A stretch of DNA of 64,000 bases from Podarcis pityusensis. Taxonomy: Eukaryota. This document shows positions 1-64,000 of the stretch, in pieces. The stretch lies in NCBI GenBank assembly GCA_964106645.2, contig OZ067040.1. One strand, 5' to 3'. How positions within the stretch are numbered: position 1 is the stretch's first letter; each line of letters opens with the position of its first letter. Both the position numbers and the translations under genes were made by a program. The notes under the pieces were generated by a model. It was not told the origin of the DNA. It saw only the letters and a list, made by a program, of their open reading frames with translations, and did no database searches.

Positions 1-622
1 AACTTCGGGGTTGTGGTGAGGATCAATTGAAAAGTCATAAATCATTTTGCATCGATAGAAGTGTCACTGTAATTGAACAATACTCCTGCTAAATAAGATG
101 AACATTATTTTATTTTCAACTAAATAGCTGTTAGGCTAGGGAGATCATAGCTTAAGTTAATGAACATCCAGTTACGTTAGATTAATTGGTCTTAAATTGG
201 TTCAGTGCTACAGTAGCTCCCTGTATCAGGCTTAAATGTTCTTAAATCCTATAACTTTCTCTGCACTTTGTATTGGAGCTTCATTTAGACTCTTACCGGC
301 AGGCTCCAAGAAAACTTCATCTCATAAATTAAGATAAGAGTTAATGGGCTGAAGTTGGTCCTTCAAAACAACGTAGCACAGTATCAATTTGTTGCTCAGA
401 ACAAATCATGGCAGGCGCTAAGCATCTTGGATCTACTGATGCTGCAGGGCTTTGTCATTCATCAATGTCTGATCATTCATCACTGCCACATCCCAAATAT
501 GCAGTAAGACCTGGTTGCTCTTGCCTAGATGTCAACAATCTCATGGTTATAAGCAAACATTCAAGAGAACTATTTCAGCACAAGGTCTGAATTGTATTTC
601 CATCTCTGATGTTGCAATGGGC

Positions 623-1199
623 CAGTGGCGTAGCGTGGGGGGTGCCAGGGGGGCCGGCCGCACCGGGCGCAACATGGGCGGGGGGCGCGCTCGCACTAGC
701 AGCTCTCTGCCCCTACTAAAATCCACGGGTTAGGGAGCCTGCGCTCGCTCGGCTTGGCGAGGAGGTGGCGGAAGGGGGAGAGCGAAGGCTTCTGCCGCGG
801 GCAAAAAAAGGAGAGGAAGCCGGGTGGGCGGGCGGGCGGGCTGGCTGGCGGGGGTCTGGCTGCGCCTGCTGCTGCCGGTGCAGGGCAAGGCAAGCAGAGC
901 GAGGAGGAGAGAGAGGGGAAGGGGGGGGAAGCAGCTAGGAAACGCTGCGGTGTGGAGGAGGAATCAATTAAGGAGAGAAAGCGAAAAGCCTTGGAGAAAG
1001 GGAAAAAGGAAAGAAAAGAGGCAGCTCCAGGAGAGCGCGGGGGAAAGAGAAGCCTCGCTGCTGCTGCTGCTTGGGAGAGTAAATTACTGTACTTGCCTTG
1101 CCCCGGGTTAGGGGGCGCAAATTATTTGCCTTGCCCCGGGTTAGGGGGCGCAAATTACTTGCCTTGCCCCAGGTGCTGATAACCCACGCTACGCCGCTG
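623..1199. mobile_element. Non-autonomous hAT DNA transposon (MITE), GC-rich interior
   Basis: 17-bp TIRs CAGTGGCGTAGCGTGGG (623-639) / CCCACGCTACGCCGCTG (1183-1199), one mismatch; perfect 8-bp TSD CAATGGGC at 615-622 and 1200-1207. Confidence 0.92.
1093..1170. repeat. 33-bp tandem repeat (about 2.4 copies) in the hAT subterminal region
   Basis: Unit TTGCCTTGCCCCGGGTTAGGGGGCGCAAATTA(T/C); explains the repeated YLPCPGLGGAN in ORF 754-1179. Confidence 0.9.
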
Positions 1200-2659
1200 C
1201 AATGGGCTTCTTCATTTGGAAGGAAAACTGGCATGGCTGCTAGTTTGAAAACTCTGCTAGGCTGTCACCAAATGTCATCTAAAATATAAATTTTAGGCGT
1301 TTCTATTCAGAATTTCTGATGAATTTCAAAGGAAACCAATAGTGTTGATAAGAACAATGACATTTCTCCATGTGTCTTTGTGTGTCTTCCTACGGAAAAA
1401 TGTGCAGCTGGCTTAAAGAAGAAGATACCTAAAGCATACAATTGCATTTCCTCCGTTTCTCTTTTTTGTTGGAATTCTGCAACATACCTAGAGCAGGCAG
1501 ATTCCACTGAGGTCAGCTCAATATTCGATGGGTCCTGGACCAGCTCAGTTCTTCCCCATCCTTGGAATGCCTTCTTTTGGAGCTTTCTGGGGGGGGGGGG
1601 GACACACCCAGTTCCACCTACTCACATGATCTGTACACAGAAGAGGAAGTTCTGGTGTCACTCTGCAGGTGAAGATTAGGAGAGATAGGGAGGGCTGGGT
1701 GGGTGGGGAGGCGGTGGTTGGGTTGCTCTGAAACTTCTGGGTAAACATGCAGAAAACTGTAGCTGTTCTTAGCTAGGCATAGCTAAATCCCATTCCAGTG
1801 TTTTCACCTGCGTTTTCCAATGAGATACTTTGAAAATAGAAATCTAATCAACTCATAAACTATGAAACATTTTTAAAAATAATAGCTAGATTGAGCTTTG
1901 CAAGAATATTTCAAGACAGCATGCATATCACCAAAACTTGCTTCTCCCAGCTTCTTTGGTTTATTAGAGAAAAGAAATGAAATTATATAATATATAAAAG
2001 TAAAATTCAGGAAACAATGGCTGTAAGAAATTTATTTTGTTCTCTAGGGAATTTGTTTGTTGTTCTTTGGAACTGATTACTGTATATCCCAGCTCTAAGC
2101 ATGTCTTCATTTAGGTTATACTTTCAATAGCTGCACTCTATTTCAAAATCATTCAATGGAAAAATGTAGCCTAAACCTACATTCATAGGAAATATTTTTG
2201 TCTCTTTATTTCTAAAATATGGCATAACCTGAAAGCATCTCTCATGACACAGAAGAGATTTGAACAAATAAGGACATTTTTTATACAATGGTCAGCTACT
2301 TTTCAAGTTAAAGTATTTCTGCAAAAACATTTCCCAGAAAAAATAAATAAGAAGTGCTCCAAGGATTTGCTCACACCACCACAATATATATGTGTCTTTT
2401 TCTTCCTTCTGAGTGCCGTATTGTCCTTGGGAACAGAGAGCTAATTCTTTTTTTATCCAGGTGTTTAAAGGCTCATTGCTTTTGGAAGAAAGAGGCAATG
2501 CAGCCTGGTAAGCAAGAGAAAAATCACTGCACCATATGTCACGCGGTGGATCTAATATAGCCAACTCAAAAGTGAACCAAGTAAATCACAGCTGGAAGCA
2601 GAGCAGTGGTGGAATAAAGTACAAGGCTGAAGTAAGCAAAGGTTTTGTCTTTATAATGC

Positions 2660-8435: not shown

Positions 8436-8518
8436 GTATGCATGCATGCATGTATGTATGTATCAATAACAACAACAATAATAATAACGATGATGATGAT
8501 GATGATGATGATAATAAT
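8432..8518. repeat. Compound microsatellite (ATGT/ATGC)-(AAC)-(AAT)-(GAT) at the L2 tail
   Basis: Read directly from sequence. Confidence 0.9.
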
Positions 8519-11500
8519 CTGTTTGTCCCATGATTTCTAGGCATGAGTCCAAGAGGTTTTACTTTTGTCCCACCAGTTTCTCCGAAGTAACCTACGGTTT
8601 GCTGCTGAACTGGAACAAATGTCAACTGGGTTTTCTGCGGCTTGATGTTTGTTCTGATCAAGCAGTCAACAGCGGGTTTTCCTGGGGAAACCAGTGTGAG
8701 AAAAGAAAAGAAAAACTTTTGGAACAAAGGGAAGTGTGACTGAGCCCTGTGTCAATGGGCATCTTCCATTTTGTTGTGAATGAGTGATATCACATGACAT
8801 GGTGTGGCTGCTGCATACTTACATGCAGCCCCTCCCTTTTTTGAGGAGGAACATAATCAGACAATGTATCAGACATAATGGGAGAGGAGAGAGGGTGTGG
8901 TTTGGGAACAACTTGCGCAGCCTCTATGAGGCCCTGTAAACCTCTCATCTGGGAGTCAAACTACATGATACATTAAATATATTATTGCATGCATTCCAGT
9001 CTCTGAGTGGTATGATAATGTTTAGCTTATTTTTTAGCTGCTGTTTTGCTAATAATGTCATTTGAATGGCAAGTGGCATAGAAATATAATAAATCAAATA
9101 TTATGCTAAGTTGCTATGGCGGTGGAGAGGGTCTTTTTAGCTGTGGCCCCATGCATATGGAATACTCTCTCTGTAGTCAGGTCTGCCGGGAGCTATCATG
9201 AACATCATTTCAGTGCTTTTGTGAACTGTTCTATTTATTCACTAGCTGGTTTTTTTGCTGCAGAGGTTTTCTGCTGTTGGTGGGTCTCTTTTATGGTTTT
9301 TGTAATTTTAAAAAATAATGTAGTGTTGTCCATTTTTAGGCTACAATCTTTTGTAAGTTGCTTACAGATTATTATTTTTTATTAAGTGGCCAACAAGTTA
9401 ATAATGAGACCAACATCAAGCCCCATCAGCCTTACAAACCATCAAGTGAACAACATTTTTGAAAAAGACATGATGTGGGAGATCTGTAGAAAGAAGACTT
9501 TAAAGGAGCCATGGAAACTTCTGCTTTAGTTTTGAACAGAAACACTTCATTGATGTAGTGTTTTTCTGCTCTAAGTGTAAGCCAGGCCCAAGCCACTGTT
9601 AACCTCAGAAAGGGGGAATTATGCAGGCCATCCATGGGTGTTCTAAAATCTGAGCACAGATCTCTCACATCATGTCTGCTTCAACTTATTGAGTGTGCAT
9701 AAAACCTCCCCCACCCAAAAGTGTTATATCACCATTTTCATTTTTGCTCACTCTCTTTTGATATCATCAAAATAGAGCAGTCCACAGTTTCCTGTGTTGT
9801 TATCCCATGTTTTTTCTGACCTGATTCATGGCTGCATCCTGCCTAGCACTGACAGGTGAAGCACTATTTTCTCAGGTGGGTTACTTAGTGGTTATTATTA
9901 GCCTGATAATTGCTCCATGAATTGCCTCAATGTCTGTTTCTGTTCCCACAGGGGAGCTATCAGGGTTTTTAATTGTTTCCTTGTATTATTATTATTTTAT
10001 GAGTGACCTAGTGCTAGTTTTCTATTTAGAAAGACTAAAAAATGTGAGCAATGGAGAGTAATTCCCCAGCTGTCATCAAAACAGGAAGTGAAAAAATGGG
10101 TCCAGCCTGCGAGTCATAAAAGTTGCACTGAACTTGCTAGGAAGTTTTGCTGAATGGGAATTGTGAGTAAACATAATAGAAATATCTATTATGGGGAAGA
10201 ACACTGGTGGCCAATATAGAGCTATATTAAAATGCTTGGGGAACTGTCATTTTACTTTTGCTCCTAGATAATTGCAGAAAAACCAATATAAGCGGACTCT
10301 AGTGTAAAAGCAACCCTAGTCATGCAAGTCTGGAAAAGAAAAGTGGGGAGGGGGGAGGAAATCAAGCAATAATGAAATGGAGCACAGACTGGCAATGAAT
10401 TATTGTTCTATCAAACTTGGAACAACACGCCATATGTCTAAAAACCAAGTAATGTGCAGAATCCACTAGGCACCCATAAACCATCACAATGCATGATGCT
10501 GGAAACCTCTACTGCTTCTTGAACTTGCCTCGCCCCATTTATTTTAGTGTGGCATGACTGGGCTCAATGTCTCCAGAGTTTCTGTGGGTTATTTAATACA
10601 AGAAATGATTTCCTTATTTACTGCTTGATAAATATGCCCTTGAATGCCTGGATTCTAGCTAATATTCTCCAGAATGATTTCAAAAGGTGGCTTTTGGGGA
10701 ATAAAAAAAAAATAGAGGCTATTTATTTTATTTTAAAGAGGTAATGGAGCTGCATTCCATCACTTCTACAGAAGCAGCTGTACCCAGCATACAGATTCAG
10801 TAATGGAGGCAGCTGTGTCCATTCAGAACTCCCCCACAGAGCATGTGGGCATTGAAGTTTCATAGTTCCTATAAGAACTGAACTCCAAAACTCCCACAAG
10901 CGTAGGTCACTACAACTAAACTTCTGAAATTCCACTTGTAAGTGTGCCTGCAAATTCCATCCACTTCTGCCAAAATAAACATTTAGAGATGTTTCTTTAA
11001 AATACAAGCAAGCAAATGAACTTTAAAGGTGTCCAGGACAAAAACTTCTGGACCTATTTGCTTGTTATCTGGCAAGCTTTATACCCTCTTGAGGGGCTGA
11101 TATCTATCAAATATATATCCAATATCTATCTGACATCTATCTGTATCTGTGTTCTGCTTTCCCAGTTGTGAATTGGGAGGAAGGAGATAAAACTAAGTGG
11201 ACTAAGAGTCACTTTGAGCCAAACTGCACAGCCTATAAATACCTTGGACATAGGCAGGCTGCTTCCTCAGTTACGGTCCAAACTGAATCATGCAGTCAGT
11301 GTATGTTCCCCCTGGACCTTCTCACTGGGAAGCATGAAAGACACTGCAAGCTAAACCATACAATTGTAACCAGAAGGTCTTGCTGATTTAAAGAGTGGAC
11401 ACCTTTATAAAATGATACATATTCTAGCCAAATTTTGCCCAGTGCCCATATGCTACCATCTACACCTAAAAACACACTGGAAATGCTCTCTTCAAACCCT

Positions 11501-15120: not shown

Positions 15121-15868
15121 CATAGAATCATAGAATCATAGAGTTGGAAGAGACCACAAGGGCCATCGAGTCCAACCCCCTGCCAAGCAGGAAACACCAC
15201 CAGAGCACTCCTGACATATGGTTGTCAAGCCTCTGCTTAAAGACCTCCAAAGAAGGAGACTCCACCACACTCCTTGGCAGCAAATTCCACTGTCGAACAG
15301 CTCTTACTGTCAGGAAGTTCTTCCTAATGTTTAGGTGGAATCTTCTTTCTTGTAGTTTGGATCCATTGCTCCGTGTCCGCTTCTCTGGAGCAGCAGAAAA
15401 CAACCTTTCTCCCTCCTCTATGTGACATCCTTTTATATATTTGAACATGGCTATCATATCACCCCTTAACCTCCTCTTCTCCAGGCTAAACATGCCCAGC
15501 TCCCTTAGCCGTTCCTCATAAGGCATCGTTTCCAGGCCTTTGACCATTTTGGTTGCCCTCCTCTGGACACTTTCCAGTTTGTCAGTGTCCTTCTTGAACT
15601 GTGGTGCCCAGAACTGGACACAGTACTCCAGGTGAGGTCTGACCAGAGCAGAATACAGTGGCACTATTACTTCCCTTGATCTAGATGCTATACTCCTATT
15701 GATGCAGCCCAGAATTGCATTGGCTTTTTTAGCTGCCGCGTCACATTGTTGGCTCATGTCAAGTTTGTGGTCAACCAAGACTCCTAGATCCTTTTCACAT
15801 GTACTGCTCTCAAGCCAGGTGTCACCCATCTTGTATTTGTGCCTCTCATTTCTTTCTTTGCCAAGTGC
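15121..15868 (-). mobile_element. Young 5'-truncated CR1 LINE (ORF2 reverse transcriptase C-terminal region, uninterrupted)
   Basis: Translation [18 protein letters not shown]...[24 protein letters not shown]...[11 protein letters not shown] is diagnostic of CR1 ORF2; (ATTCTATG)n 3' tail at 15121-15142. Confidence 0.96.
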
Positions 15869-17061
15869 ATAAAGCTGAATGTGCACAAGTTTAAATGCAC
15901 ACGAGTTGTGAGTTACGAGTTGTGTGTAACTCTATCAAGTTTTAAGGTTGCACAAAAGAAGTACTTTGAGTTACAGGTTGTAAAAAGAAAAATGGCAAAC
16001 TAAAATAAGCAGGTGTTTAATCATCCTTTACTTTTCTATAAACCCAGTTGTTTGAAGTGGTCCTGAGCATACCAAGACTCGGAACTCAAAGATGTGAATT
16101 TCATTAAATCATGTTGTTCCTAAGGATATGGTTTTCCATTAGGTCACAGTGTTCCTTTCTGGTTAGTTAGATTTCAATTGCCAATTACTCTTTAAACATT
16201 ATTCATGGTCCACATGGCCTGTTTTCCAGCTTTGTGGAACTTGAGCCAACAGGAGAACATCTTAACTCTGATCTGAGACAAGCAGGGTTTTGTTTTTGTT
16301 TTAAATCATTAAATCTTCCAGATCATCTCTATTTTCAGCTCAAATTCAATCACATACCAGCAAATTCAGGTCACATAGGTAGATTTGACTGGGAGGTCTT
16401 GCAAAGAAACCAGCTTTTCCAACAGATCACACTTTCCTTTTTGTGATGATGAAAGTGGCAGGGAAAGCGTGGCTTGTATTGACCCAATGCCATCAAGCCC
16501 TCTCTGCAAGCAAATCAGGATGAATGCTCATTCAGTAGCCAATAACATCTAATCTCTCGGCAAAGAAATCAGGATGGCTGAACTGGTCACCTGAAAGCGC
16601 TCTTTCAGTTGTTATTGTTTTAACTGTTACATGTCTCATGGGTGACAAGAATGCCCTTACCTTCCACATTTTAAATATTCACTTCTGACTCCCTATACTT
16701 CCTGTGAGGTAAGTTGGGAGGTCATAAGATGCTGCAAACTTCCCTCTTTGCCAGCAAAGAGTGACACCTCCCCAATGTAGTGGAGGAAGTTCTGTTGCTG
16801 TTATTGTGCTCTCAGCAGTGGGATGGGTGGGTGGGAGGGAAATGGGGGGGGGGTGACTAGGAGGGGGGAGTTGAGGAAGGCTGCTGATTCACCTTCAAAA
16901 TGGGTCCAATGCTACACCAGCCTTGGAGATGCGGTAGTAAATTTTCTCCAGTCAGTCAATGGAAAGGGGGAAAGGTTAAATTGGGGGGAAATTCCACCCT
17001 CTTCTAGTATGGCCAGAGCAAGCTGGCAGACTTTAGAAAATGTCAATTCCTCTGCTATGAG

Positions 17062-23150: not shown

Positions 23151-24787
23151 TAAATTAAATAAGCAGGGAGACAATATACAGCCTTGTCATACTCCTTTCC
23201 CAATTTTGAACCAATCAGTTGTTCCATATCCAGTTCTAACTGTAGCTTCTTGTCCCGCAAGATTTCTCAGGAGACAGATGAGGTGATCAGGCACTACCAT
23301 TTCTTTAAGAACTTGCCATAGTTTGCTGTGGTCGACACAGTCAAAGGCTTTTGCATAGTCAATGAAGCAGAAGTAGATGTCTTTCTGGAACTCTCTAGCT
23401 TTCTCCATAATCCAGTGCATGCTTGCAATTTGGTCTCTGGTTCCTCTGCCCCTTCGAAATCCAGCTTGCACTTCTGAGAGTTCTCAGTCCACATACTGCT
23501 TAAGCCTGCCTTGTAGAATTTTAAGCATAACCTTGCTAGTGTGTGAAATGAGTGCAATTGTGCGGTAGTTGGAGCATTCTTTGGCACTGCCCTTCTTTGG
23601 GATTGGGATGTAGACTGATCTCCAATCCTCTGGCCACTGCTGACTTTTCCAAACTTGCTGGCATATTGAGTGTAGCACCTTGACAGCATCATCTTTTAAA
23701 ATTTTAAGTAGTTCAGCTGGAATATCATCACTTCCACTGGCCTTGTTATTAGCAGTGCTTTCTAAGGCCCATTTGACTTCACTCTCCAGGATGTTTGGCT
23801 CAAGGTCAGCAACCACACTACCTGGGGTGTACGAGACATCCAATTCTTTCTGGTATAATTCCTCTGTGTACTCTTGCCACCTCTTCTTGATGTCTTCTGC
23901 TTCTGTTAGGTCCTTATCACTTTTGTCCTTTACTATGGTAATCTTTGTACAAAATGTTCCTTTCATATCTCCAATTTTCTTGAACAGATCTCTGGTTTTC
24001 CCCATTCTATTGTTTCCCTCTATTTCTTTGCATTGTTCGTTTAAGAAGGCCTTCTTGTCTCTCCTTGCTATTTTTTGGAAATCTGCATTCAATTTCCTGT
24101 ATCTTTCATTATCTCCCTCACATTTTGCTTCCCTTCTCTCCCCCGCTATTTGTAAGGCCTCGTTGGACAGCCACTTTGCTTTCTTGCATTTCCTTTTCAT
24201 TGGGATGCTTTTCGTTGCTGCCTCCTGTATAATGTTATGAGCCTCCACCCACAGTTCTTCAGGCACTCTGTCCACCAAATCTAAATCCTTGAACCTGTTC
24301 CTCACTTCCACAATTCATAAGGGATTTGATTTAGATTGTATCTTACTGGCCCAGTGGTTTTTCCTACTTTCTTCAGTTTAAGCTTGAATTTTGCTATAAG
24401 AAGCTGATGATCTGAGCCACAGTCAGCTCCAGGTCTTGTTTTTGCTGACTGTATAGAGCTTCTCCATCTTTGGCTGCAGAGAATATAATCAATCTGATTT
24501 CGATGCTGCCCATCTGGTGACGTCCATATGTAGAGTTGTCTCTTGTGTTGTTGGAAAAGAGTGTTTGTGATGACCAGCTTGTTCTCTTGGCAGAACTCTA
24601 TTAGCCTTTGCCCTGCTTTGTTTTGAACTCCAAGGCCAAACTTGCCAGTTTATCTCTTGACTCCCTACTTTAGCATTCCAATCCCCTATAATGAGAAGAA
24701 CATCCTTCTTTGGTGTCATTTCTATAAGGTGTTGTAAGTCTTCATAGAATTGGTCAATTTCAGTTTCTTCAGCACCAGTAGTTGGTG
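23151..24787 (-). mobile_element. RTE-BovB LINE, inverted internal segment (endonuclease through RT), frameshifted
   Basis: Peptides APTTGAEETEIDQFYEDLQ...IIGDWNAKVG (EN), NYRTIALISH, QAGFRRGRGTRDQI, FIDYAKAFDCVDH, WFKIGKGV (RT); several frameshifts and stops; no 3' tail on this strand. Confidence 0.95.
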
Positions 24788-25059
24788 GAAGGACAGATCC
24801 TGAAGCTGAGGCTCCAGTACTTTTGGTCACCTCATGAGAAGAGAAGACTCCCTGGAGAAGACCCTGATGTTGGGAAAGATTGAGGGCACAAGGAGAAGGG
24901 GACGGCAGAGGACAAGATGGTTGGACAGTGTTCTCAAAGCTACCAACACGAGTTTGAACAAACTGCGGGAGGCAGTGGAAGACAGAAGTGCCTGGTGTGC
25001 TCTGGTCCATGGGGTCACGAAGAGTCGGATACGACTAAACGACTAAACAACAACAACAA
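24786..25059 (+). mobile_element. RTE-BovB LINE 3' end (sense segment of the same insertion)
   Basis: MRREDSLEKTLMLGKIEGTRRRGRQRTRWLD...VHGVTKSRIRLND*, terminal GAGTCGGATACGACT hairpin and (CAA)n tail. Confidence 0.95.
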
Positions 25060-47490: not shown

Positions 47491-48185
47491 CCGTATTTTT
47501 CGTTCCATAGGATGCACCTAGTTTTTTTTGGGGGGGGGAATAAAGGGGGAAAAAAATTCCCTTTATTTCCCCCCCAAAACCAGGTCAGGGAAACCGAACC
47601 AGGTCGTGGAACAGCGGGATGGCGGCGCTGCGCCTCCCTGCTGTCCCCCGAGCTTGTGGGGCTGGCCGATGTCTGCCCGGCATGCGGGGCGCTCTGCTTC
47701 AACGTGCCCTGCCCGCCGGGCGGCAGGCTGCTATCCGCCGTGTGGGGAGCCCTGCGGGGAACTCCTGCAGGGCTCCCCACGCTGCGGATGTCTGCCCAGC
47801 GCGAGGGGCGCTCTGCTTCAGGGCGCCCTTCGCGCCGGGCAGCAGGCTGCTATCCGCAGCCTAGACTACCCTGCGGGAACTCCTGCAGGGCTGCCTAGGC
47901 TGCGGATGTGTTCCCGAAGCGCCGGGCACTCTGCTTTCAGCGCGCCCAGCACTCCGGGAAGCAGGCTGCTATCCGCAGCCTAGACAGCCCTGCAGGAACT
48001 CCCGCAGGGCTGCCTAGGCTGCGGGTGTCTTCCTGAAGCCTGGAGAGCGAGAGGGGTTGGTGCGCACAGACCCCTCTCGCTCTCCAAGCTTCAGCTAAAG
48101 CCTGCATTCGCCCCCTAGGACACACCCATATTTCCCCTTCATTTTTGGAGGGGAAAAAGTGCGTCTTATAGGGCGAAAAATACGG
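47491..48185. mobile_element. Tc2-like (CCGTA-TIR) non-autonomous DNA transposon carrying a GC-rich hairpin array
   Basis: ~27-bp TIRs CCGTATTTTTCGTTCCATAGGATGCAC / GTGCGTCTTATAGGGCGAAAAATACGG; TA on both sides. Confidence 0.92.
47669..48030. repeat. Three 119-bp tandem units, each made of two hairpins
   Basis: Anchor GCAGGCTGCTATCCGC at 47723, 47842 and 47961 (spacing 119, 119). Confidence 0.9.
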
Positions 48186-61485: not shown

Positions 61486-62873
61486 GTATAGACTCTAGAC
61501 CTCATAGAATCTTATATGTATGAAGACCCACTTCCTTCATATGTTTGTACTATGAGTTTACTGTGGTGATATAACCTCAGATGCCCCTACTGCCATCCAG
61601 GCAAGACGACCTTGTCTTCTACTGGAAGTAGAAAGGGTTGTGTGTGTGTGAGAGAGAGTGTGTGTTTTGTAGTGGCCCCTGCTTTCCGAAACAACTTCCA
61701 CAGGGAGCTCTGTCAGGCCCAGTCCACTCAGATTTTCAGGAGGTCAATACACATTCAGGCCTTCTGAGATCTGGAAGATATGGCTTTATGCCATGGCTAC
61801 TGTTGTTTTTTGTCAGTGTTTTAGTACATTGTGTTCTTGTATTTTTAATTGGCCTGCCCATAGCTGATAACACCAGCTAGAAGAAAGATGTTTTTCTTTA
61901 GAGGCAGATGAAGCACAGTTTTTCAGCTCTGCCTGTTTTCGGCATGCAAGATACCGATGAGTGTGTGTGTGTGTGTGCTTGCGCTGCAGTAAGACAGGAG
62001 GGAATTGAGGACTGAGCTGTTTGTAGACTATTAAGGGTTAGACGACTGATTTGAGAAATTAGGGCTAACACAAGTCTGTGTCCCTAGTGCCTAATGGATC
62101 CGAGAACAGTGGGCATCATGAGCTCAATAAATCATGCCAGAGAAGCATTACTGCTTTAAAATGAAATTAAAACCACAGTGAATATGGGGAACATAGTGGG
62201 TTTTATAATACTGAATTTAAAATGAAAACACTTCTTATTGCATCTTGCATAATCTTGCTACACAGCTGAGTTCAGAAGCTACATTAAATAAGAATACTGG
62301 CATAAGGACTGAAAAAATACAGCTTCAAAGGCTTAACTTAAGGATGAAGAGGCCTGTCTGGCTTTGTTTCAGCATCGGTTGAAAACCTGGCTACTCAGGG
62401 TTCATCCTCTTCTCTTTGGTGTGAGATTTTTTCCGTTTGTTCACTGACTTCTCGACATGGGTCTGAGAGGCTCTTCTTTTGTCCCTCCTCTTTCACAGAG
62501 AAAACCCATGGTTTACAGCAGCATTGGAATGTTCTGATTCAGCAGTAAACTATGAGTTTTCTTTGGAAAAGTGGTGGGACAAAAGGAGAACCTCTAGGAT
62601 CCATGCTGATAAGTCATGGGACAAACAGAAGAAATCTCAGACCAAACAGAAGTGTGGCATGGACATGTCCTTGCTGAGGCTTTGGGGCACTGTAAATATT
62701 GTAACTCATCCTCACTTGTGGATTGGCATCAGTGCCAAACTAGATAGGCCTTGGGTTTGATTCTGCAGGGCTCTTCTTATGTTTTTATCATGGCCACAAT
62801 CCAAACCATGAAAAAGCTTCAATTTGCACCTGAAACATCAGAGAAGTGGGACCTGTGCTGCAGTAGTGGTTGG

Positions 62874-63281
62874 TGTCAGGGAACTGCCATCGGAAGGAAG
62901 GGAGGTGGAAGGGCTCACACAGGTTGGGAGAGACTCAGCAGCTGAAGAGGGAACCAGTAGGGGGAGAAGAGCTGAGCTGAGGGAAAGTGAGCAGGAGGGA
63001 TGGCTCCGAGACACTTCCAGCGAAAACAGTGGGGAGGTTTCAGGACCTCCTGTAGGGACACCCACTCCTCGCCGGAAACTGTCACGCAGAGAGTCCAGAA
63101 GACGTGTTTCCGTTAAGGAGCTTTTATGTTGGAAACGATTCCGAAAGCAACCACTGTCGGAATCTGCAAGCGACTGACAGAGCCATGTTTAAGGGGCTCC
63201 GTTACAGACAGAGGTTTGCAAACTTGACCAAACTCTGAGGGACTTGGATTTTACGCACAAGCAGCTCATCGTCCCATCACA
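62874..63281 (+). mobile_element. 5' LTR (~408 bp) of a Ty3/Gypsy (Tf1/sushi-like) retrotransposon
   Basis: Starts TGTCAGGGA and ends TCCCATCACA (TG...CA, imperfect terminal IR); abrupt shift to CpG-rich sequence at 62874; followed by PBS and gag. The 3' LTR lies outside the window, so boundaries are inferred. Confidence 0.8.
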
Positions 63282-63283
63282 GC

Positions 63284-63294
63284 ATTCCGACAGT
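63284..63294 (+). promoter_or_regulatory. Self-priming primer-binding site (non-tRNA)
   Basis: ATTCCGACAGT is the exact reverse complement of ACTGTCGGAAT at 63153-63163 in the LTR; no TGG tRNA-type PBS after the LTR. Confidence 0.75.
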
Positions 63295-63326
63295 CTCTGT
63301 GAGCAGTTTGTGCAGGAGAAGGCATC

Positions 63327-64000
63327 ATGAGCAACCCAGCCGGAACCGGAGAAGCAGGAGCTGGAGCGGGTCCAAGCCTGGAGGAAAGGTACCGGGCGTT
63401 GGAGGTCCAGCTAGCACTGCAGGCGGCGAGGCTCGAGGAGAGGAGGGCTCAAGATGCAGAGAAGGGGAAAACCACCCCGCTCGCCAGAAAGTTGCCAGGA
63501 TTGGTGCAGAAGTTTGGGGGGGAGGCCAAGGACTATCATGCCTTTAGGACAGAGATGCAATATGCCCTTAATCTGCAGTTTGATGACTTTCCCGACGAGG
63601 AATCGCGGGTGGCTTTTGTGATTGGGCATCTCGAAAAGGGGGCGAAAGACTGGGTGAGGCCCCTGATGGCAACAAACAATGACATCCTGAAGGATACGAG
63701 GAAGTTTTTTCGTGCAATGGATTTGATGTTTTCCAGCGATATTGAGCAGGGAGTGGTACGCAGACAGTTAATGGCGTGCAAACAGGGGAGCCGATCTGTG
63801 CGTGAGTACTGGACTGAGTTTACCATGTTGATCCATAAATTGGGGTGGGATCTATCGGCGGAACCCATTCAAATGCTCTTTGAAGAAGGGCTTGCTTCGG
63901 TGGTAAAGGATGAACTTTCCCGGGCGCCCAGGGCGGAGTCTATGGACCAGCTGACCAAATCAGCGCTGACCATAGGAGCGCGCCAAGAGGCGAGAGCCTT
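63327..64000 (+). CDS. gag: Ty3/Gypsy retrotransposon Gag (capsid; sushi/PEG10/RTL-like), open to the window edge
   Basis: Manual translation, 224 codons with no stop: MSNPAGTG...KFGGEAKDYHAFRTEMQYALNLQFDDFPDEESRVAFVIGHLEKGAKDWVRP...KQGSRSVREYWTEF...LFEEGLASVVKDEL; has the QGxxSVxEY major-homology-like and FxxGL motifs; ATG in a good context (ATCATGA). Confidence 0.92.
   Translation, partial: MSNPAGTGEAGAGAGPSLEERYRALEVQLALQAARLEERRAQDAEKGKTTPLARKLPGLVQKFGGEAKDYHAFRTEMQYALNLQFDDFPDEESRVAFVIGHLEKGAKDWVRPLMATNNDILKDTRKFFRAMDLMFSSDIEQGVVRRQLMACKQGSRSVREYWTEFTMLIHKLGWDLSAEPIQMLFEEGLASVVKDELSRAPRAESMDQLTKSALTIGARQEARA

What the first reader, a model, noticed from the sequence alone, without database searches (positions are those of the whole stretch)
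62874..63313. Self-priming (tRNA-independent) Gypsy retrotransposon with the whole priming structure readable in the LTR and leader
Seen: there is no TGG-type tRNA PBS after the LTR end (63281). Instead ATTCCGACAGT (63284-63294) is the perfect 11-nt reverse complement of ACTGTCGGAAT (63153-63163). That 11-mer begins in an initiator-like CCACT about 30 bp downstream of a TATA-like TTTTAT (63122-63127). U5 GCACAAGCAGCTCA (63255-63268) can also pair with leader TGAGCAGTTTGTGC (63300-63313), with 12/14 Watson-Crick pairs plus one G-U, bracketing the PBS. Established: fission yeast Tf1 primes reverse transcription by annealing the first 11 nt of its own mRNA to the PBS within a U5-leader stem, and vertebrate sushi-group elements are predicted to do the same. 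Inference: this is a young, possibly active lizard member (gag is open and CpGs are intact) whose transcript starts at or near 63153. The mechanism is known, but I cannot tell whether this family has been described.
Basis: partly seen in the sequence, partly recalled or inferred. Interest (0 to 1): 0.75.

Follow-up and report, generated by a model that had tools for sequence, protein, structure and literature searches.

The report
Self-priming wall-lizard retrotransposon, long integrase tail
This is the left end of a very abundant lizard jumping gene that probably starts copying itself from its own RNA end, a trick already known from yeast; the less ordinary part is that the same DNA also codes for a long protein tail, which carries motifs resembling those that host proteins use to dock on active genes.

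Summary
Contigs of four public runs fix the LTR at 62874-63281. After a 2-nt spacer comes an 11-nt PBS complementary to 63153-63163 (21 of 20,000 shuffles), and no TGG. A 12-14 bp U5-leader stem encloses it; the window's G-U is G-C in most relatives. Family Pol proteins (Podarcis gene models) read PR-RT-RH-IN-chromodomain, so this is a lacertid chromovirus with the Tf1/sushi layout. Self-priming is known, and this scan already noted it twice in moss DNA. Not shown: the start site, primer-PBS covariation, a firm third 'pretzel' duplex, current activity. Subfamilies differ inside the primer, which makes covariation directly testable. Upstream, the integrase tail has two helix-acidic linker-[F/L/M]xGF motifs like LEDGF/HRP2-binding motifs, each at least one letter off the published consensus, and the chromodomain lacks its third cage aromatic. 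Binding is untested. Verdict: known mechanism, new variant, with one bold lead.

The parts
62874..63281 (+). 5' LTR, 408 bp, TGT...ACA
   Evidence: loose ends and depth step; sequence
62869..62873 (+). left flank; would be one copy of the target-site duplication (length and identity unverified, right end outside the window)
   Evidence: inference
62875..63177 (+). stop-free frame of 100 codons plus stop; equals the C-terminal 100 residues of the family's Pol, read from the 3' LTR
   Evidence: 14 of 26 proteins match residues 1-100 at 62-96% identity
63122..63127 (+). TATA-like TTTTAT, 26-31 nt before the primer
   Evidence: same spacing in distant relatives
63137..63147 (+). U3 arm complementary to 63154-63164 (8 perfect pairs, 10 of 11 in all); can hide the primer copy in RNAs that contain U3; probably a by-product
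63153..63163 (+). predicted self-primer, the first 11 nt of the RNA; also codons of the Pol tail (within P-L-S-E-S)
63239..63275 (+). weak candidate for the third duplex: 63239-63243 with 63271-63275 (5 bp; 4 bp with the common 63271 variant)
   Evidence: variant
63255..63268 (+). U5 arm of the U5-leader stem
63284..63294 (+). primer-binding site, 2 nt behind the LTR end, not of tRNA 3'-end type
63300..63313 (+). leader arm of the U5-leader stem
   Evidence: 63307 is C in 99.6% of X1 depth
63327..64000 (+). gag, first 224 codons, open at the window end (full length about 337 aa with a CCHC knuckle in relatives)

Best explanation
The window ends in the 5' part of a recently spread, high-copy lacertid chromovirus (Ty3/Gypsy, Tf1/sushi type). 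Shown: LTR limits, PBS position, 11-bp complement, U5-leader stem, family domain order, Pol frame through U3. Inferred by analogy with Tf1: RNA polymerase II starts at or next to A63153, about 30 nt behind the TATA-like box; the free 5' end threads into the 31-nt loop of the U5-leader stem and pairs with the PBS (the two helices cross, so the primer must be at or near a free end); RNase H cuts after base 11 and the fragment primes minus-strand DNA with no tRNA. In the 3' LTR the same DNA is translated as the last 100 residues of integrase, so the primer is under two constraints, pairing and coding, and R must reach at least the stop at 63177.
For: Complement beyond chance. Primer-PBS pair probability 0.95 for an RNA starting at 63153; duplex energies -16.0 and -18.3 kcal/mol. 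LTR ends. 63307 is C in 99.6% of X1 depth and in most depth of the other three runs, which turns the G-U into G-C; a Podarcis lilfordi gene model that reads through the leader keeps the PBS codons and has Ala at that codon. Family Pol has RVT_1, RNase H, rve, SH3_Tf2-1 and Chromo; P0168 joins this gag start and this LTR tail in one model. Gag relatives include RTL1 and fish and frog proteins with chromodomains; the best PDB hit is PEG10. Distant relatives show the same layout with other sequences: fish-like L003 (10-nt PBS, 2-nt spacer, TATA about 30 nt up, U5-leader stem) and two recurring PBS types in 6 and 5 of 80 loci. Half-tRNA priming was found only in Copia lineages in a plant survey (PMC6317226). 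In 63000-63174, 6 of 7 shown variants are synonymous in the Pol frame against about 29% expected.
Against: No start-site data. Covariation is not shown: a G>T variant at 63156 inside the primer (13%, 40%, 63% of depth in X7, X14, X15) has no partner row at 63291 among the 40 rows shown (79 hidden), and 9 of 14 complete Pol ends carry Asp for Glu, a change at 63162, whose PBS partner I could not see. 63301 G>A (97% of X7, 100% of X14) breaks an outer stem pair with no compensation shown. The third Tf1 duplex is weak. The TATA and initiator are non-canonical and the LTR has none of 12 poly(A) hexamers tried. The loose scan also hit 8 of 80 reversed control loci, so only its recurring hits count. 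The synonymous test used a region chosen after seeing the data; in 62875-62999 only 2 of 11 shown variants are synonymous. The RT tree leaves the family unresolved and has no named Tf1 or sushi row.
Confidence: 0.85

Rival explanations
1. The PBS is primed by a host RNA (internal tRNA fragment or other small RNA), and the LTR complement is a relic or is kept only by Pol coding.
For: The primer 11-mer lies in a conserved reading frame, so its conservation has a second cause. Primer variants have no visible PBS partner. Host tRNAs could not be compared: none in the window, no genome held.
Against: No TGG; perfect 11/11 complement at the expected distance from a TATA-like box; the same layout with different sequences in relatives; coding would not keep the PBS, which is non-coding; half-tRNA priming reported only for Copia.
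Confidence: 0.05
2. Self-priming is right, and the U3 arm (63137-63147) is a selected switch: it folds over the primer copy in the 3' LTR and in upstream-started RNAs, so only correctly started 5' ends can prime.
For: 8 perfect pairs, seen in 86 of 20,000 shuffles for the 57 nt upstream and 101 of 5,000 for all U3 (test made after seeing it). Hairpin probability 0.97 in a 3'-LTR-like RNA; primer-PBS drops to 0.15 for an RNA starting at 63130. The 63156 variant makes the hairpin a perfect 11 bp.
Against: Primer-PBS returns to 0.58 and 0.88 for starts at 63100 and 62874. The arm encodes R-F-R of the Pol tail; 9 of 14 Pol ends have Asp, which breaks one pair, and an X7 loose end behind 63143 breaks another. 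0 of 15 candidate relatives have an arm of 8 nt or more.
Confidence: 0.15
3. The true start lies some bases upstream or downstream of 63153 and the primer has another length, or the stems flanking the PBS differ from those proposed.
For: Weak promoter motifs; other 6-bp helices next to the PBS exist (63177-63182 or 63277-63282 with the leader); relatives have 9-12 nt complements.
Against: The duplex ends sharply at 63153; those alternative helices are weakened or broken by common variants at 63179, 63297 and 63301, while the core of the U5-leader stem shows only the improving change.
Confidence: 0.1

Closest known systems
Tf1/Tf2 of Schizosaccharomyces pombe (founding self-priming chromovirus)
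   Same: 11-nt complement between the predicted RNA 5' end and a PBS just behind the LTR, a flanking LTR-leader duplex, chromodomain integrase (passages of PMC7175516 and PMC10085805).
   Different: Tf1 has one ORF and no CCHC in Gag; this family has a separate Gag with CCHC. Tf1's third duplex has only a weak counterpart here. Priming is proven for Tf1, only inferred here.
Vertebrate Tf1/sushi group (sushi-ichi of Takifugu, GyDB V-clade; Butler et al. 2001, cited through, not read)
   Same: Gag related to PEG10/RTL1, SH3_Tf2-1 plus chromodomain, TGT...ACA LTR, predicted self-priming; fish-like locus L003 has the same layout. Full-length chromoviruses are reported from squamate genomes (PMC3670739).
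   Different: RT-RH identity is only 47-50% and the family sits on a long stem. Pol continues 225 residues past the chromodomain anchor, against 14-176 (mostly 44-47) in 40 anchor matches from 80 loci. The third cage aromatic is Glu in 21 of 21 family proteins, Tyr in the fish and frog ones.
Plant CRM group A centromeric chromoviruses
   Same: [quoted passage not shown]
   Different: CRM elements use tRNA-Met and carry a CR motif in place of a chromodomain; no overlap of coding sequence with a self-primer.
TND-interacting / IBD-binding motifs of MLL1, JPO2, IWS1 (LEDGF and HRP2 partners)
   Same: Helix, acidic Ser/Thr-bearing linker, FxGF, two in tandem as in JPO2 (PMC9987994); consensus D/ExExFxGF (PMC8022399).
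   Different: Known examples are host proteins; lentiviral integrases use the same tether. Neither lizard motif fits the strict consensus: the first has L or M for the first F, the second D, G or S for the second E. No PDB sequence hit for the tail. Binding untested.

Membership tests
Ty3/Gypsy (Metaviridae) | LTR, gag, then pol in the order PR-RT-RH-IN | tested here: met
   LTR and gag in the window; order in family Pol proteins, tied to this LTR by the shared tail; best PDB hit Ty3 Gag-Pol
Chromovirus | chromodomain at the integrase C-terminus | tested here: met
   PF00385 above cut-off in 3 of 3 proteins scanned; outside the window itself
Chromovirus, type I chromodomain | all three cage aromatics | tested here: not met
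   third site Glu in 21 of 21 family proteins with the domain; first site Tyr in 12 of 21; definition from PMC3059260
Tf1/sushi group | PBS not of tRNA type and complementary to an LTR segment behind a TATA-like box | tested here: met
Tf1/sushi group | the complementary segment is the true 5' end of the RNA | not testable with these tools
   only contigs were offered; they cannot show RNA starts
Tf1/sushi group | duplex between the leader behind the PBS and the LTR | tested here: met
   12 WC + 1 G-U, G-C in most relatives
Tf1/sushi group | third duplex between the sequence before the PBS and the LTR ('pretzel') | tested here: inconclusive
   best candidate 5 bp, 4 bp with the common 63271 variant
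Tf1/sushi group | primer and PBS change together across subfamilies | tested here: inconclusive
   primer variants seen; PBS partners not among 40 rows shown, 79 hidden
Tf1/sushi group | monophyly with Tf1 and sushi-ichi in an RT-IN tree | tested here: inconclusive
   quick RT-RH tree of 87 rows: family unresolved beside a fish-like clade and the rest; no named reference, no outgroup
Tf1/sushi group | RNase H cleavage after the primer | not testable with these tools
   bench test
TND-interacting motif (LEDGF/HRP2 type) | short hydrophobic helix before the linker | tested here: inconclusive
   single-sequence model of P0171 (mean pLDDT 54) puts a helix at 111-118 before the second motif, none before the first
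TND-interacting motif (LEDGF/HRP2 type) | acidic linker with Ser/Thr kinase sites | tested here: met
   both motifs in 19 of 26 family proteins, all those that include this stretch
TND-interacting motif (LEDGF/HRP2 type) | strict D/ExExFxGF consensus | tested here: not met
   first motif has L/M-E-G-F; second has F-x-G-F but D, G or S at the second E
TND-interacting motif (LEDGF/HRP2 type) | binds a TND | not testable with these tools

The most novel reading that the evidence does not exclude
This lizard chromovirus has lost the methyl-lysine cage of its chromodomain and instead tethers its integration complex to LEDGF/HRP2 (or another TFIIS-N-terminal-domain factor) through two kinase-tunable host-type motifs in a new integrase tail, steering insertions into transcribed genes by motif mimicry; the rest of that tail is encoded by U3 and by the self-primer itself.
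Probability: 0.25. Interest if true: 0.75.

Novelty: new variant of a known kind. Interest (0 to 1): 0.42.

Why it matters
Self-priming has been proven in fission yeast and only predicted for vertebrate elements. A high-copy lizard family with subfamilies that differ inside the primer allows a direct covariation test from public genomes, and it belongs to the lineage behind PEG10 and RTL1. The primer doubling as coding sequence is an unusual constraint. If the tail motifs bind LEDGF or HRP2, a retrotransposon would have reached the lentiviral tether by copying the host's short motif. As first reported, the finding is an expected member of a known group.

Tried and rejected
No whole genome was held, so no 3' LTR, target-site duplication, LTR-LTR age or host tRNA set. 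No second copy in the window. No close DNA relatives in viral contigs, metagenome contigs or prokaryote genomes; distant ones came (80 loci). No RNA holder on record was listed; X15 is RNA only by guess and holds LTR-flank junctions, so it was not used for expression. Depth is no copy number and was used only for the boundaries. X1's flank contig stops at 62874 and no X1 contig shows the window's letter at 63135, 63416 or 63423; whether X1 carries this insertion was left open. The 100-codon LTR frame is not significant by length alone (23% of shuffles); it is accepted on homology. The R hairpin 63165-63220 of the single-sequence fold is broken by common variants and was dropped. Rfam gave only a chance hit; ARAGORN found no tRNA. 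The ESM Atlas gave nothing above 0.80 for the tail and the PDB sequence search nothing. A Pfam scan of 94 of the 107 longest frames found no host gene, only two LINE pieces. No complex prediction was run, since no TND sequence was at hand. Three primary papers were not held. Literature searches that found no description of this family, of self-priming in reptiles or of such motifs in a retrotransposon: (listings only; open-licence library; Repbase, Dfam and subscription journals not searchable, supplements not read), so 'undescribed' is not established.

Full report
Observation. 63284-63294 is the exact reverse complement of 63153-63163, there is no TGG behind the LTR, and the U5 and leader arms pair with 12 Watson-Crick pairs, one G-U and one mismatch. 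An 11-nt or longer complement at this position arose in 21 of 20,000 shuffles of the LTR and in 48 of 8,858 comparable stretches of the window. The promoter motifs are weak: TTTTAT is not canonical, the initiator fits 6 of 7 recalled positions, and none of 12 poly(A) hexamers occurs in the LTR.

Limits and age. No genome was held, so I laid contigs of four public runs, of 23 listed, on 62760-63480. Loose ends fall before 62874 and behind 63281, and summed depth rises from tens to 1e4-4e5 at 62874 in the three large runs. The LTR is therefore 408 bp and the family is highly repeated; related sequence was listed in ten coded organisms. In X14 and X7 a flank contig runs 85 and 30 letters past 62874 without following the LTR, so the site looks empty there. 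In the closest run, 596 of 833 contigs are 99% alike or better, but the window differs from that run's majority letter at 10 of the 40 places shown (79 hidden). CpG is less depleted than in the flank (0.62 against 0.24). This fits a recent spread of the family; nothing can be said about present activity of this copy.

Identity. The 224 codons of gag match Retrotrans_gag and Ty3_capsid and four 337-339 aa proteins at 84-92%. A Podarcis lilfordi gene model holds the gag start and a protease piece. Searching with that piece gave Podarcis muralis Pol models with protease, RT, RNase H, integrase, SH3_Tf2-1 and chromodomain; 26 proteins were listed in their clusters. Wider Gag relatives include RTL1 and fish and frog proteins with chromodomains, and PEG10 is the best solved structure. 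This is a lacertid chromovirus. A quick RT-RH tree places it on a long stem, unresolved against a fish-like clade, and lacks named references.

Priming. Tf1 pairs its first 11 bases with the PBS and RNase H cuts between bases 11 and 12 (PMC7175516, passages). The structure has three duplexes and self-priming is called a common feature of the Tf1/sushi group, vertebrates included (PMC10085805, PMC6317226, PMC4600332, passages). The primary papers were not read. Here an RNA starting at 63153 forms the primer-PBS helix with probability 0.95; the U5-leader helix crosses it, so the folding program cannot show both, but their duplex energies are -16.0 and -18.3 kcal/mol. Crossing helices require the primer to be at or near a free end, which fits a start at 63153 (inference). 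The stem's G-U is G-C in 99.6% of X1 depth, and no other change in its 12-bp core is among the rows shown; an outer pair is broken in X7 and X14. The third duplex is at best 5 bp. Among 80 distant loci, 15 had long direct repeats; of 7 analysed, 4 had an 8-12 nt self-complement behind the LTR end and 3, with truncated or uncertain LTRs, had 7 or fewer. A looser scan hit 15 of 80 loci but also 8 of 80 reversed controls; its credible hits are two PBS types recurring in 6 and 5 loci and the fish-like L003, all with a TATA-like box about 30 nt before the primer. So the layout is general to the group. Earlier notes of this scan report it in two moss genomes (not checked).

What was missed. The LTR holds a stop-free frame, 62875-63177. 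It is the end of Pol: 14 of 26 family proteins match all 100 residues at 62-96% identity and stop at the same place, 4 more match part, 8 do not reach it. The frame covers U3, the TATA-like box and the primer. In 63000-63174, 6 of 7 shown variants are synonymous against 29% expected (p about 0.003, region chosen afterwards); in the first third only 2 of 11. Coding into the 3' LTR has a precedent in plant CRM group A (PMC3059260, passages), which use tRNA. Subfamilies differ inside the primer: 9 of 14 complete ends have Asp for Glu (63162) and a synonymous change at 63156 is common in three runs. Self-priming predicts matching PBS changes. I could not see them, and this is the best open test.

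U3 arm. 63137-63147 can fold onto 63154-63164 and would hide the primer in RNAs that contain U3 (probability 0.97 in a 3'-LTR-like RNA; 86 of 20,000 shuffles). One common variant perfects it, two others break it, and 0 of 15 candidate relatives have an equal arm. I rate it a likely by-product of coding.

Integrase tail. Between chromodomain and LTR lie about 90 acidic residues with two conserved motifs: a short aromatic and basic stretch ending in Phe, a Ser/Thr- and Asp/Glu-rich linker, then L/M-E-G-F or F-x-G-F. Both occur in all 19 of 26 proteins that include the stretch, and 45 of 91 columns are invariant in 15 distinct tails while the spacer between motifs varies. This is the anatomy of TND-interacting motifs, whose FxGF part is needed for LEDGF and HRP2 (PMC9987994, section 6 and passages). 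Neither motif meets the strict D/ExExFxGF consensus (PMC8022399, passages), a low-confidence model shows a helix before only the second, and searches of the PDB and the ESM Atlas gave nothing. The chromodomain lacks the third cage aromatic in 21 of 21 proteins, which leaves room for another tether. Searches listed no paper on such motifs in a retrotransposon. This is a lead at about 1 in 4, and it rests on relatives, not on the window.

Verdict. Real feature, known mechanism, inferred rather than shown for this family (confidence 0.85). Full-length chromoviruses in squamates are already reported (PMC3670739, passages); whether this family has a name could not be checked. The coding primer and the long tail make it a variant worth noting. 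Interest 0.42.

Noticed in passing
P0159-P0184 (family Pol, after the chromodomain; outside the window): Two conserved helix-acidic linker-[F/L/M]xGF motifs, spacing 34 or 42 residues. With a pattern written after seeing them: two hits in 7e-5 of shuffles of the tail, 1 hit in 158 other proteins, 0 in about 1 million residues of six-frame loci.
   Followed up: partly
window 63069-63177: The U3-encoded tail ends in a basic, well conserved stretch (proline-directed and basic kinase-like sites, nuclear-signal-like; labels recalled) that is far more conserved than the first third of U3.
   Followed up: partly
P0008 / P0157 / P0158 (Zootoca vivipara gene models): A TRIM-type RING-B-box protein fused to a complete related Gag. 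It may be a real capsid-decoy fusion or a gene-model artefact.
   Followed up: no
window 63260-63309: Depth falls across the LTR end about 4-fold in X1, 6-fold in X7 and 25-fold in X14, more than the 2-fold expected from full-length copies alone, suggesting many solo LTRs (depth is a rough measure).
   Followed up: no
window 62409-62652: Inverted repeat with 121-nt arms, 78% complementary, 220 nt left of the LTR; part of it recurs at 8518-8617. Looks like a MITE-type element.
   Followed up: no
window 15128-15931 (-) and 23190-25034 (-): LINE fragments; the second gives weak endonuclease and RVT_1 hits. CR1 and RTE/BovB labels are recalled, not from a call.
   Followed up: no
window 500-1200 and 47500-48000: CpG-rich, GC-rich islands; no host gene was identified among the frames scanned.
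   Followed up: partly
P0002-P0005 ends and P0160/P0161 starts: Gag ends and the Pol frame begins in what looks like an overlap in another frame, as expected for a -1 frameshift (reported for non-yeast Tf1/sushi elements); no DNA was available to check.
   Followed up: no
UniRef entries: Most of these element copies (21 of 26 listed... all but one of the 24 named) are annotated as the host gene 'Gypsy retrotransposon integrase-like protein 1', a misleading name.
   Followed up: no
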